From Escherichia coli (GTDB taxonomy: Bacteria > Pseudomonadota > Gammaproteobacteria > Enterobacterales > Enterobacteriaceae): a DNA stretch of 64,000 nt. Below the pieces are notes generated by a model. That model was not told where the DNA came from. It worked only from the letters and a program-made list of their open reading frames with translations, and did not search any database. Below are positions 52,277 to 53,967 of the stretch, piece after piece. The stretch lies in the NCBI RefSeq assembly GCF_003334385.1, contig NZ_QOWN01000001.1. One strand, written 5' to 3'. The position numbers and the translations under genes are program-made. How positions within the stretch are numbered: position 1 is the stretch's first letter; each line of letters opens with the position of its first letter.

Positions 52277-52956
52277 CTGATTACGCCTCAATCGTTTTCT
52301 TTTCTGGTGATTTTCACCATCACATGTCAGTTGTATATGCAAGGGAATCAATAAAAATATCACCCTGCAAGCACTTCAAAGCTGATTATGGGGATATTCT
52401 AGAACTATTCACAAAACTATTCCAGACATATCAAGAACTATTTCTTGATCTATTCATAATAAAATAAAACATGCTATCAACTACGGATCATATCCTCCTT
52501 AGGTGTGTCGTTGTACTGTTCGACTGTTCTTGTGGTCAGATTAACAATCTGAAGAGTAAAAGCGACAGTAATCTGTCTGTTATAGTGGCGATAAAAACAC
52601 TGACTGCGCATCCTGTATGTGAAATCCTGTCATGTAGAGCAGTAAGCAATGACAGACATGCATGTTATATGTGAAGGGGCCGGGAGACGACATAATCAGT
52701 ATGGCTGTCATTCTGGTTGTAAAACGCGATCACTTTCCGGGGGTAAAAGATGATATGGAGGTTGACAAACGGTTTGCTTCGGATTGTCTTTTCTGGGGCC
52801 TGAAGTACGGGGGCAGAAAAATAATTCCAGAGTAAATCTGCTCTGTTTTTAGGACAGAAAACTCCATGCTGGCTGTAAAAGTGAAAAATTAACACCTAGT
52901 ATGTATGGAAGTCTGAAGATATTGAGAATGTCGGTATGATACTATATACACATATT

Positions 52957-53065
52957 TTACTAAGTATTTTTACTAAGCATTTCAGTAAGTGTTATACACG
53001 TATTTTCTACTAAGTGTTTTACCAGACATACACGTGTTTTCATAAACAGCCCTATAAGTGTTTTC
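52957..53065. repeat. Cluster of short direct repeats (iteron-like) in an ORF-poor AT-rich region
   Basis: TACTAAG occurs at 52958, 52971 and 53008, with variants cagtaag (52984) and ctataag (53053); a 15-nt direct repeat atacacgt(a/g)ttttc occurs twice about 36 bp apart. Confidence 0.6.
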
Positions 53066-53967
53066 ATTAAGCATTGCTGTACACATTGCTTTGTCTGAAA
53101 CACATCCAGTTTAGTAAATCTTTACGTTAGCTAAAATCAGTTTAAAGCTGCTGTAAAACCTTTTTGTTTAAGCAATCAATCTGCTATTCGATTTTACTGA
53201 TGTTGCGTTTAACCTTTTCTGAGTTTTTGTGTTTTTAGTCGTTAACCTGAGACAAGTGTCTTTACGTAAAAACGCAAATCCGACTGAGATAACCTGGTGT
53301 GATTTACGGTGTGCTTGCGACGATTTTGTTAAATGGTTCTATGGATGATTTTGTGACGATGAGATTGATAAGATGATTAACTGGCCCTGGTGTTTTTTCT
53401 CAGTGCAAGGTGATTATCTTTATCATAAGGCTCTTTTCAGAAAAAGCGTGATGATTGGTTCTGGTGTTTTGATTCAGATGAGATTTACGTTATCGATGGT
53501 TAATCGTTTTTATGGTGTGTTGAAAAGTAACGTTTTCAGGATAAGAAAATCGATTCTGATATTGGTGAACTTTGTTCTTGTGGCAGGGTTATCTGTAAAC
53601 AGGTTTTAAGTGCGCTATTCGGCTCTGTGATTGAGTTGTGTGGTTAAGCTGTAGGTTTTGGTGTTGTTGTTGATTTGCATTGCCAGGAAGCGTTCTGGTT
53701 GCGTTTCTGGTGTTTTGTTCGAATGTTCTGTGGATCCTTTTCCCTTCAGGCTTTTCTCGTCGTCCATGTCGTTTTTAAATCCATTCATGCTGTTGTTGCG
53801 TGTTTTGCTGCTGTGTGCAGGATTATCTTTTCGTTCCGGGATGGTTTGTTCCGTTTCAATCACTCTTAATCAGAGAGTTGTAGCATTGCTCAATGCCGGA
53901 TGCCGTAAAGTTTTACCGCGTTGATGAATGATGTGAAGTCAATCCAAATCAACGGAGATCTCTCATC

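What the first reader, a model, noticed from the sequence alone, without database searches (positions are those of the whole stretch)
52364..53967. 1.6-kb ORF-poor AT-rich region with iteron-like repeats
No convincing protein-coding ORF spans this region; only short overlapping frames without SD appear. It contains five copies of a TACTAAG-type heptamer within about 110 bp (52957-53065) and a 15-nt direct repeat atacacgt(a/g)ttttc spaced about 36 bp. Such arrays are typical of binding sites for replication, partition or regulator proteins, and the region sits upstream of the YagK/YfjJ-like gene. It could also hide a non-coding RNA or a decayed gene.
Basis: seen in the sequence. Interest (0 to 1): 0.45.

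Follow-up and report, generated by a model that had tools for sequence, protein, structure and literature searches.

The report
Repeat-bearing non-coding module beside Rep-like gene
The 1.7-kb gene-free stretch is real and found in about a third of E. coli genomes; its right 1.15 kb always travels with a neighbouring rolling-circle-replication-type (HUH) gene and carries a variable-number array of short direct repeats, so it is most likely protein-binding control or origin DNA, not an RNA gene or a dead gene, though its function is untested.

Summary
Window 52277-53967 has no conserved ORF, and the TAAG array (52943-53085) exceeds chance: 6 TAAGYR in 110 bp against a maximum of 4 in 2000 shuffles.

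The region has two parts. The left part (52277-52818) goes with the leftward gene. The 1.15-kb "core" (52819-53967) forms one ~2-kb module with the YagK/YfjJ gene and its terminator hairpin. About 100 loci share the left border (52818/9), and 64 of 94 share the right border (54796-54802).

No allele of the core holds an ORF longer than 89 aa. There is no Rfam hit, no conserved RNA or ssDNA structure, and no protein remnant. Most of the core drifts at about the synonymous rate. Short conserved blocks and the repeat array persist in every allele, with 0-9 copies.

Best reading (about 0.4): cis-acting DNA for the island's HUH protein, meaning iterons plus control or origin DNA. Rivals are a purely transcriptional operator or silencing region, and a largely neutral spacer. 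Structured ncRNA and decayed gene are not supported. Nothing here is experimentally tested.

The parts
52277..52464 (-). Upstream region of the leftward 262-aa gene (51488-52276). It holds four or five AACTATTC-type direct repeats (52394-52455) that overlap the best sigma70-like sites on the - strand.
   Evidence: the repeat finder family D1. AACTATT at 52403, 52415 and 52436. PWM hits TGGAAT-17-TAGAAT and TTGTGA-18-CATAAT with the -10 at about 52401/52390. The repeats are kept, with copy changes, in other alleles.
52509..52727 (.). Most conserved block of the intergenic region; function unknown. It is part of a 52465-52818 segment found only in some alleles.
   Evidence: pi 0.024-0.030 against 0.08-0.23 in the flanks. 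Present in 552/5426 genomes, mostly at 95% identity or more, and almost never annotated (one of 25 sampled records lists a hypothetical protein). No RNA-structure signal.
52819..53967 (.). Non-coding core that always accompanies the Gp2/YagK-YfjJ-family gene. It is the left part of a ~2-kb module spanning 52819-54798.
   Evidence: Left homology border at 52818/9 (or 52800) in the great majority of about 100 loci with different genes further left. 54 distinct colinear alleles of 1056-1227 bp with no ORF above 89 aa. Mean pi 0.131 against 0.099 at Gp2 third codon positions.
52820..52839 (+). Conserved left end of the core. It contains AGTAAATCT (52831-52839).
   Evidence: pi 0.098. AGTAAATCT occurs only twice in the 64-kb window, here and at 53113.
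52943..53085 (+). Variable-number direct-repeat array. Six TAAG[TC][AG] units are interleaved with three or four ACAC(A/G)T(A/G)TTTT units, all in one orientation.
   Evidence: significance. One search shows copy-number variation of 0-9 and the repeat character kept in diverged alleles.
53100..53139 (.). Best-conserved block inside the core, directly right of the array: ACACATCCAGTTTAGTAAATCTTTACGTTAGCTAAAATCA. It holds weak face-to-face promoter-like sites (+ TTTAGT-16-TAAAAT; - TTTAGC-16-TAAACT).
   Evidence: pi 0.02-0.06. PWM scan. The unit TTTAGTAAATCTTTACG is tandemly duplicated two or three times in L063/L058.
53483..53781 (.). Dispensable middle segment. In about 35 loci it is replaced by about 1155 bp carrying a 176-aa gene on the - strand. 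In four loci 53411-53687 is deleted.
53891..53967 (+). Nearly invariant Gp2-proximal region. It holds the imperfect palindrome CCGTAAAGTTTTACCG (53903-53918), TTGATG, and the SD GGAG (53954-53957). It is presumed to be the promoter, operator and 5' UTR.
   Evidence: pi 0.005-0.054 for 53900-53967 (0.17 in the window just to the left), partly forced by the 23-nt search pattern at 53935-53957. One palindrome match in the window.
53968..54708 (+). YagK/YfjJ ('inovirus Gp2') family protein, a single-Tyr HUH endonuclease-like protein of the Rep type.
54742..54798 (+). Terminator-like hairpin AAGGGCGT-cagcca-ACGCCCTT followed by a T-rich tail. The right border of the module is at 54798.
   Evidence: Sequence. 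The homology border falls at 54796-54802 in 65 of 94 loci. Different sequences follow it.

Best explanation
The right 1.15 kb (52819-53967) is cis-acting DNA that belongs to the neighbouring HUH (YagK/YfjJ, 'inovirus Gp2') gene. Together they form a ~2-kb cassette in the backbone of CP4-57/CP4-44-type E. coli genomic islands. The one-orientation, variable-number repeats (TAAGYR / ACACRTRTTTT, flanked by two AGTAAATCT sites) are proposed to be binding sites (iterons) for an island-encoded protein, most likely the HUH protein itself. They would mark an origin and/or autoregulatory control region used once the island is excised. This would resemble the iterons that sit next to the initiator gene in SaPI/PICI satellites, in RCR plasmids and in CRESS-DNA viruses.

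Shown: the region is non-coding, linked to the HUH gene, holds a real and persistent array, and has no RNA structure; the neighbour has the HUH fold and motifs.

Inferred: that a protein binds the repeats, which protein it is, and any replication role.

The left 0.54 kb (52277-52818) is a separate piece tied to the leftward gene. It holds that gene's promoter region with its own AACTATTC repeats, and an unexplained, highly conserved block.
For: (1) The core, the gene and the terminator hairpin share borders at 52818/9 and 54798 in about 100 and 64 of 94 loci respectively, with different genes outside both borders.

(2) The array is significant and present in all 54 alleles. Copy number varies and a repeated unit survives in the most diverged alleles. 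The conserved blocks on each side both carry AGTAAATCT, the only two copies in 64 kb.

(3) The region is non-coding in every allele. It has no RNA family match or conserved fold. It has no strong promoter (top score 7.8 against 10.3 +/- 1.2 in shuffles).

(4) The neighbour has the HUH and Tyr motifs and an HUH-nuclease fold, with weak PHROG hits to 'replication initiation protein'.

(5) In Providencia, Brenneria and Morganellaceae the same layout holds: a leftward operon (GTPase, where present, plus antirestriction and/or DUF932 genes), an intergenic region, then Gp2 and AlpA. The Providencia and Brenneria intergenic regions also hold direct repeats: TATGTGTTT x3 and ACACATTTTA x3-4.

(6) Weak hints of an episomal state. 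A 62-kb circular record consists of island DNA with no typed replicon. [quoted passage not shown]
Against: Most of the core evolves no slower than Gp2 synonymous sites (pi 0.131 against 0.099). About 300 bp of it can be deleted or replaced.

Repeat spacing is irregular (12-13, 24-25, 34-46 bp) and not in helical phase.

No hairpin or nick-site candidate was found, and ssDNA folding is unremarkable. DnaA boxes are not enriched.

The array lies about 900 bp from the gene.

Pairwise distances of the array do not track those of Gp2 (rho 0.09-0.11).

The upstream region of one paralogous Gp2 gene that was examined shows no comparable array.

The shared ACACAT core across genera is significant only in Brenneria.

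No paper found reports replication by this family.
Confidence: 0.4

Rival explanations
1. The region is a purely transcriptional control or silencing region. The repeats and conserved blocks would be operators for island regulators (AlpA, the WYL-HTH protein, the fast-evolving 262-aa protein) and/or a nucleation zone for H-NS-type silencing. This would set the divergent expression of the leftward gene and of Gp2(-AlpA), with no role in replication.
For: The divergent gene pair around an AT-rich intergenic region is conserved from Morganellaceae to E. coli. The leftward gene belongs to one fast-evolving family. The AACTATTC repeats overlap the best - strand promoter-like sites. The nearly invariant Gp2-proximal 70 bp holds a palindrome. 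GC is 31-44%.
Against: 1.15 kb is far more than operators need; the same junction is 400-750 bp in other genera. The array lies 670-900 bp from either start codon. No strong promoter sits near it. In some alleles the gene on the left points towards the core (L004, L013).
Confidence: 0.28
2. The region is a largely functionless spacer. It would be AT-rich horizontally acquired DNA that has not yet been deleted, with slippage-prone short repeats. Only the Gp2-proximal ~80 bp and a few short blocks would be functional.
For: pi of the core is at or above the synonymous level. Segments are deletable or replaceable. Copy number drifts. Linkage between adjacent segments decays fast.
Against: More than 100 alleles down to 77% identity all keep about 1.1 kb free of genes with the same two borders. 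There are conserved blocks at pi 0.02-0.08. The repeat character is retained in the most diverged alleles. Strand bias of GTGTTTT (never on the - strand) and of base composition is kept in all 54 alleles.
Confidence: 0.2
3. The region is transcribed as an unstructured RNA. One version is a C-poor, G/U-rich + strand leader that resists Rho and reads into Gp2. The other is a C>G, A-rich - strand transcript that acts as a Rho-dependent attenuator or insulator, possibly overcome by an AlpA-type antiterminator.
For: + strand composition at 53100-53900 is C 15%, G 24%, T 40%. The skew is kept in all alleles and in Providencia. Self-complementarity is very low. P. aeruginosa AlpA is a processive antiterminator (PMC7969949).
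Against: No convincing promoter was found to start such a transcript. Type B alleles carry a convergent gene in the middle of the would-be leader. The skew is absent in Brenneria and Morganellaceae. The P. aeruginosa AlpA element GGGACGN5GGTA is not present (sequence).
Confidence: 0.09
4. The region is a decayed protein-coding gene or a structured non-coding RNA gene.
For: Only the length of the gap, plus short ORFs that PGAP sometimes calls (57, 82 and 44 aa).
Against: No allele has an ORF above 89 aa, and frame-breaking indels occur between alleles. tblastn of neighbouring and alternative proteins gives E > 0.3. There are no Rfam hits. SCI is at most 0.58 outside the Gp2-start window and z-scores are near 0.
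Confidence: 0.03

Closest known systems
Replication origins of phage-inducible chromosomal islands (SaPI / Gram-negative PICI ori next to pri-rep)
   Same: Both sit in an integrase + AlpA-type island. Both have short one-orientation iterons of variable number in non-coding DNA that travels with the island's initiator gene. (The SaPI/PICI properties are from my own knowledge, not tested here.)
   Different: The initiator here is a small HUH protein, not a Pri-Rep helicase. Here the repeats lie about 900 bp upstream rather than directly adjacent to the initiator gene, and are irregularly spaced. No AT-rich melt region flanked by two iteron sets was identified. No replication has been shown.
Double-strand origins of rolling-circle plasmids (e.g. 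pMV158: nic hairpin plus three direct repeats bound by RepB)
   Different: No nick-site hairpin was found. The array is larger and more irregular. The element is a 20-60-kb integrated island, not a small plasmid.
Intergenic or 'common' region of CRESS-DNA viruses and geminiviruses, and the intergenic region upstream of gene II in filamentous phages
   Same: Both are non-coding regions between divergent genes, placed upstream of the HUH rep gene and carrying Rep-binding iterons that serve both origin and promoter control.
   Different: Those regions are built around a conserved stem-loop or several hairpins. This one is conspicuously unstructured and three to five times longer.
Frpo/ssi single-strand promoters of plasmid leading regions
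   Same: Both lie upstream of a block of antirestriction, DUF932 and RadC-type genes like those of conjugative leading regions.
   Different: Frpo-type elements are long imperfect hairpins. None is present here. One or two other genes separate the core from that block.

Membership tests
Iteron-type origin (plasmid, PICI or RCR 'bind' locus) | Several direct repeats of one motif in one orientation, more than chance | tested here: met
   6 TAAGYR in 110 bp against a maximum of 4 in 2000 shuffles; TRF score 53. All copies are on the + strand.
Iteron-type origin (plasmid, PICI or RCR 'bind' locus) | Physical linkage to the cognate initiator gene | tested here: met
   Same ~2-kb module as the HUH gene in about 100 loci, although about 900 bp away from it.
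Iteron-type origin (plasmid, PICI or RCR 'bind' locus) | Regular, helically phased spacing of the repeats | tested here: not met
   Spacings are 12-13, 24-25 and 34-46 bp. There is no 10-11 bp periodicity.
Iteron-type origin (plasmid, PICI or RCR 'bind' locus) | Adjacent nick-site hairpin or AT-rich unwinding element; DnaA boxes for theta origins | tested here: not met
   No significant hairpin. DnaA-box-like sites are at the chance level.
Iteron-type origin (plasmid, PICI or RCR 'bind' locus) | Initiator binds the repeats and the DNA supports replication | not testable with these tools
   Needs EMSA or footprinting and a replication assay.
Iteron-type origin (plasmid, PICI or RCR 'bind' locus) | Repeat sequence co-varies with the initiator | tested here: inconclusive
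   Array and Gp2 distance matrices correlate at only 0.09-0.11. Nearly all alleles share the same repeat motif, so the test has little power.
HUH endonuclease (Rep/relaxase) superfamily, for the neighbouring protein | HUH metal-binding motif, catalytic Tyr motif, and the HUH fold | tested here: met
Structured non-coding RNA | Match to a known family, or a conserved fold with covariation | tested here: not met
   No Rfam match. SCI at most 0.58 on either strand outside the Gp2-start window (0.67 there), with consensus energies near 0.
Pseudogene or decayed gene | Homologous intact gene elsewhere, or detectable protein remnants | tested here: not met
   1879 E. coli genomes and 117 metagenome loci were searched and none shows an intact gene over this DNA. 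tblastn E > 0.3. No blastx against the full protein database was run.
Frpo/ssi single-strand promoter | Long imperfect hairpin in one strand carrying -35 and -10 elements | tested here: not met
   DNA-parameter folding gives -0.3 to -15 kcal/mol per 120 nt, with no long hairpin. The longest inverted repeats are 21-22 nt at 73-76% match.
Origin of transfer (oriT) | nic site next to inverted repeats, cut by a relaxase, supporting mobilisation | not testable with these tools
   Its position between an HUH gene and a leading-region-like gene block is compatible. No inverted repeat or nic consensus was found.

The most novel reading that the evidence does not exclude
The 2-kb cassette (core + HUH gene, 52819-54798) could be a self-contained rolling-circle replication or mobilisation unit of the CP4-type pathogenicity-island backbone. 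The HUH protein would bind the TAAG/ACAC iterons and nick nearby. Excised islands could then amplify, or be handed to a helper phage or plasmid. This would be a function nobody has assigned to the YagK/YfjJ family.
Probability: 0.25. Interest if true: 0.7.

Novelty: new variant of a known kind. Interest (0 to 1): 0.45.

Why it matters
Islands with this backbone (CbtA/CbeA, RadC, antirestriction, DUF932, YeeP GTPase, AlpA, YagK/YfjJ) carry many virulence and fitness genes of pathogenic E. coli; here the cargo is ireA. How they are maintained after excision, and how they move, is poorly understood. The YagK/YfjJ family has no assigned function in the papers I could search.

This work defines a discrete non-coding partner of that HUH gene, with candidate binding sites and exact borders. 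That gives a concrete, testable handle: does the protein bind or nick this DNA, and does the cassette replicate? If instead the region proves to be only a silencing or operator zone, or neutral spacer, the finding is an ordinary island intergenic region.

Tried and rejected
- **Structured RNA.** Rfam scans with permissive thresholds found nothing credible. RNA and DNA folding gave weak z-scores. Sliding RNAalifold on 31 diverse alleles gave low SCI.
- **Decayed gene.** ORF survey of 54 alleles. tblastn with nine neighbouring or alternative proteins.
- **DnaA boxes.** At the chance level.
- **Intrinsic curvature or A-tract phasing.** Not significant.
- **Strong sigma70 promoters.** None; top scores are below the shuffle level.
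- **Frpo-like hairpin.** Absent.
- **Shared 'operator' upstream of the next operon.** This turned out to be a partial duplicate of the Gp2 5' region in L009-type loci.
- **Cross-genus ACACAT core.** Significant only in Brenneria.
- **Array-Gp2 co-variation.** None detectable.
- **Comparable array upstream of a paralogous Gp2 gene.** Not found.
- **Phage and plasmid homologues of the DNA.** None in phages. Four plasmid records match; the two examined are island-derived or mosaic.
- **The one 'phage' hit to the protein.** A low-coverage 4.5-kb contig.
- **Genome-contig scan with the single protein.** Gave only 2 loci.
- **Literature.** Searches for YagK/YfjJ/inovirus Gp2 found no functional study.

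Full report
**Context.** The window is 99.9% identical to E. coli ATCC 11775 over the finding. Annotation there shows a CP4-57/CP4-44-type island backbone. On the - strand lie CbtA/CbeA, DUF987, JAB/RadC, antirestriction, DUF932, DUF905, a WYL-HTH regulator and a YeeP-like GTPase (window 49551-50435). Next come two unnamed genes (50538-51491 + and 51488-52276 -), then the gene-free interval, then an 'inovirus Gp2 family' (YagK/YfjJ) gene (53968-54708 +), and then ireA.

**The observation.** The interval 52277-53967 (1691 bp) has only short ORFs of at most 88 aa. GC is 31-44%, and on the + strand G exceeds C and T far exceeds A at 53250-53850.
- The TAAG array is real. TRF reports period 13, 5.2 copies, at 52955-53020.
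- There are six TAAG[TC][AG] sites at 52961-53068 and three ACAC(A/G)T(A/G)TTTT units at 52948, 52996 and 53030.
- In 2000 dinucleotide shuffles no 110-bp window held more than 4 TAAGYR. A TRF score of at least 53 arose in 1% of shuffles.

**Distribution and anatomy.** The DNA occurs in 1879 of 5426 complete E. coli genomes, mostly at 80-90% identity. It is annotated as 'none' or as small hypothetical proteins. It is absent from phage records, and four plasmid records match; the two examined are island-derived or mosaic.

A metagenome scan with a 23-mer from the Gp2 5' region gave 117 loci. blastn against them splits the interval in two.
- The left part (52277-52818) is present only in some alleles and goes with the leftward gene.
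- The right 1.15 kb (52819-53967, the 'core') is present in nearly all loci. Its left border is sharp at 52818/9 (or 52800).

Three architectures exist:
- colinear (65 loci, 53 distinct);
- 53483-53781 replaced by about 1155 bp carrying a 176-aa gene on the - strand (about 35 loci);
- 53411-53687 deleted (4 loci).

Downstream, homology ends at 54796-54802 in 64 of 94 loci. That point lies just after a terminator-like hairpin (54742-54763), and different sequences follow it. Core, Gp2 gene and hairpin are therefore one ~2-kb module between two variable zones.

**Not coding, and not a structured RNA.**
- In 54 distinct alleles the longest ORF in the core is 37-89 aa.
- Alleles differ by 1-, 2-, 4-, 5-, 11- and 20-nt indels.
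- tblastn with nine neighbouring or alternative proteins finds nothing (E > 0.3).
- Rfam gives nothing credible even at E up to 10.
- Sliding DNA folding shows weak energies and no long hairpin.
- RNAalifold on 31 diverse alleles gives SCI of at most 0.58 on either strand and mostly below 0.3. The one exception is 0.67 in the last minus-strand window, which overlaps the Gp2 start.

**Constraint.** Nucleotide diversity of the core (0.131) is no lower than that of Gp2 third codon positions (0.099; positions 1 and 2 are 0.065 and 0.042). Most of the core is therefore not under detectable purifying selection. The exceptions are short blocks:
- 52820-52839;
- 52920-52939;
- 53100-53139 (pi 0.02-0.06);
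- 53460-53559;
- 53640-53679;
- 53700-53719;
- the Gp2-proximal 70 bp (pi at most 0.05, partly forced by the search pattern).

The array itself changes by gain and loss of units. Its equivalent is 138-270 bp long and holds 0-9 TAAGYR. It is never lost, and the most diverged alleles (L055, L067) still show a repeated tcATTAnG unit.

AGTAAATCT occurs exactly twice in the 64-kb window, at 52831 and 53113. These sites lie on either side of the array, and both sit in conserved blocks. In L058 and L063 the unit TTTAGTAAATCTTTACG is tandemly multiplied. The base-composition skew and the absence of GTGTTTT from the - strand hold in all 54 alleles.

**The neighbouring gene.**
- Pfam gives YagK_YfjJ_C (5.7e-34) and REP_ORF2-G2P (5.8e-7).
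- PHROGs gives weak hits to replication initiation proteins.
- An alignment of 24 homologues down to 41% identity conserves RVDL.P, KHYHV.LLLN and RA.YL.K..TK, which are the three motifs of single-Tyr HUH endonucleases.
- 50 of 54 alleles have an intact gene.

**Wider comparison.** In Providencia, Brenneria and Morganellaceae, Gp2 homologues (35-39% identical to the query by BLASTP; 41-48% in the A1 alignment) sit in the same layout. A leftward operon (a GTPase in Providencia and Morganellaceae, plus antirestriction, DUF932, RadC or CbtA genes) is followed by an intergenic region and then Gp2 and AlpA. There the intergenic region is only 400-750 bp.

The gene directly left of the intergenic region belongs to one fast-evolving family. 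The window's 262-aa protein matches L008 (5e-29) and L009, and L009 matches the Morganellaceae protein (2.6e-11). The Providencia and Brenneria intergenic regions contain direct repeats, TATGTGTTT x3 and ACACATTTTA x3-4. Their ACACAT core resembles the E. coli ACACRT units, but the enrichment is significant only in Brenneria (P 0.001) and marginal in Providencia (0.02).

**Interpretation.** The evidence favours DNA-level function: binding sites in a module dedicated to an HUH Rep-like gene. By analogy with SaPI/PICI origins, RCR plasmid origins and CRESS-virus common regions (my own knowledge), I propose iterons that serve an origin and/or autoregulatory function after excision. My confidence is about 0.4.

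Weak circumstantial support:
- A 62-kb circular record is made only of island DNA and has no typed replicon.
- Related Pseudomonas islands with intY, alpA, RadC and a Gp2-like gene are transduced by a jumbo phage. That paper does not address this region.

Against the origin model:
- The repeat spacing is irregular.
- No nick hairpin or DnaA boxes were found.
- The array lies 900 bp from the gene.
- There is no array-Gp2 co-variation.
- Most of the core drifts neutrally.
- The middle of the core is dispensable.

The main rivals are a purely transcriptional operator or H-NS silencing zone (0.28) and a mostly neutral spacer (0.20). An unstructured leader or Rho-related RNA is possible (0.09). A decayed gene or structured RNA is unlikely (0.03).

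**Left part.** The AACTATTC repeats overlap the best - strand promoter-like sites, about 115 bp upstream of the 262-aa gene. Between them and the core lies 52509-52727, the most conserved stretch of the whole interval (pi 0.024-0.030). It is present once per genome in 552 genomes and almost never annotated. It shows no RNA-structure signal. It remains unexplained.

**Verdict.** The feature is real, widespread and essentially undescribed. Function remains inferred, so I rate interest as moderate.

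Noticed in passing
window 52509-52727: A highly conserved 220-bp block (pi 0.024-0.030, while the flanks differ by 8-23%). It is present once per genome in 552/5426 E. coli genomes and almost never annotated. It has no Rfam hit and no folding signal. A 67-aa + strand ORF and a 44-aa - strand ORF persist in most alleles.
   Followed up: partly
window 52394-52455: A second direct-repeat array (GATATTC, AACTATTC x2, AACTATTTC, ATCTATTC; about 12-13 bp spacing). It overlaps the best - strand promoter-like sites upstream of the 262-aa gene. It is kept, with copy changes, in other alleles.
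   Followed up: partly
window 52818/52819 and 54798: The core, the Gp2 gene and the terminator hairpin form a ~2-kb module with the same two borders in most loci. Unrelated genes lie outside: restriction endonuclease, YfjI, acyltransferase, ireA, IS elements and hyp-AlpA on the right, and three or four different genes on the left. The two junctions look like cargo hot spots. CTGAAGT lies at both borders (52800, 54787).
   Followed up: partly
window 51488-52276 (-) and 50538-51491 (+): The 262-aa protein has no Pfam, PADLOC, PHROG or NCBIfam match. It belongs to a fast-evolving family found next to Gp2 in other alleles (26% identity, 5e-29), and it links through L009 to Morganellaceae. The 317-aa protein is distantly related to the 407-aa protein of L004. 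Their functions are unknown.
   Followed up: partly
L003 4851-6006, L004 4671-5826 (replaces window 53483-53781): About a third of the loci carry a ~1155-bp insert in the core with a 176-aa gene on the - strand (WP_000778605.1). Its only match is a weak PHROG hit to 'transcriptional regulator, D5-like' (E 0.003).
   Followed up: partly
CP057032.1 (L013, L137, L138): A 62-kb circular 'plasmid' record with no typed replicon and no annotated rep, par or tra genes. It is made of island DNA: an integrase, three Gp2-type genes, two AlpA genes, F4 (fae) fimbrial genes and the CbtA/CbeA block. It may be an excised or episomal island, or an assembly artefact.
   Followed up: partly
L058, L063 (equivalent of window 53108-53125): The conserved unit TTTAGTAAATCTTTACG is present in two or three tandem copies. 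The conserved block next to the array can therefore itself be multiplied.
   Followed up: no
L009 4497-4550 and similar loci: A partial duplicate of the Gp2 5' region (CGGTAAAAACTTACCG ... TTGATTAATGATGTGAA ... AACGGAGATC) lies just downstream of the Gp2 terminator with no ORF behind it. It is probably a scar of recombination between tandem Gp2 paralogues.
   Followed up: partly
L010 (JAEYLX010000008.1): A contig labelled 'Bacillota bacterium' MAG carries a 91%-identical copy of this E. coli Gp2 gene and its core. This is probably binning contamination.
   Followed up: no
window 55407-55499: A weak Rfam match to the mir-316 model (26 bits, E 0.039, far below the gathering score) just upstream of ireA. 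It is almost certainly chance, but it marks a hairpin-prone stretch in the ireA leader.
   Followed up: no
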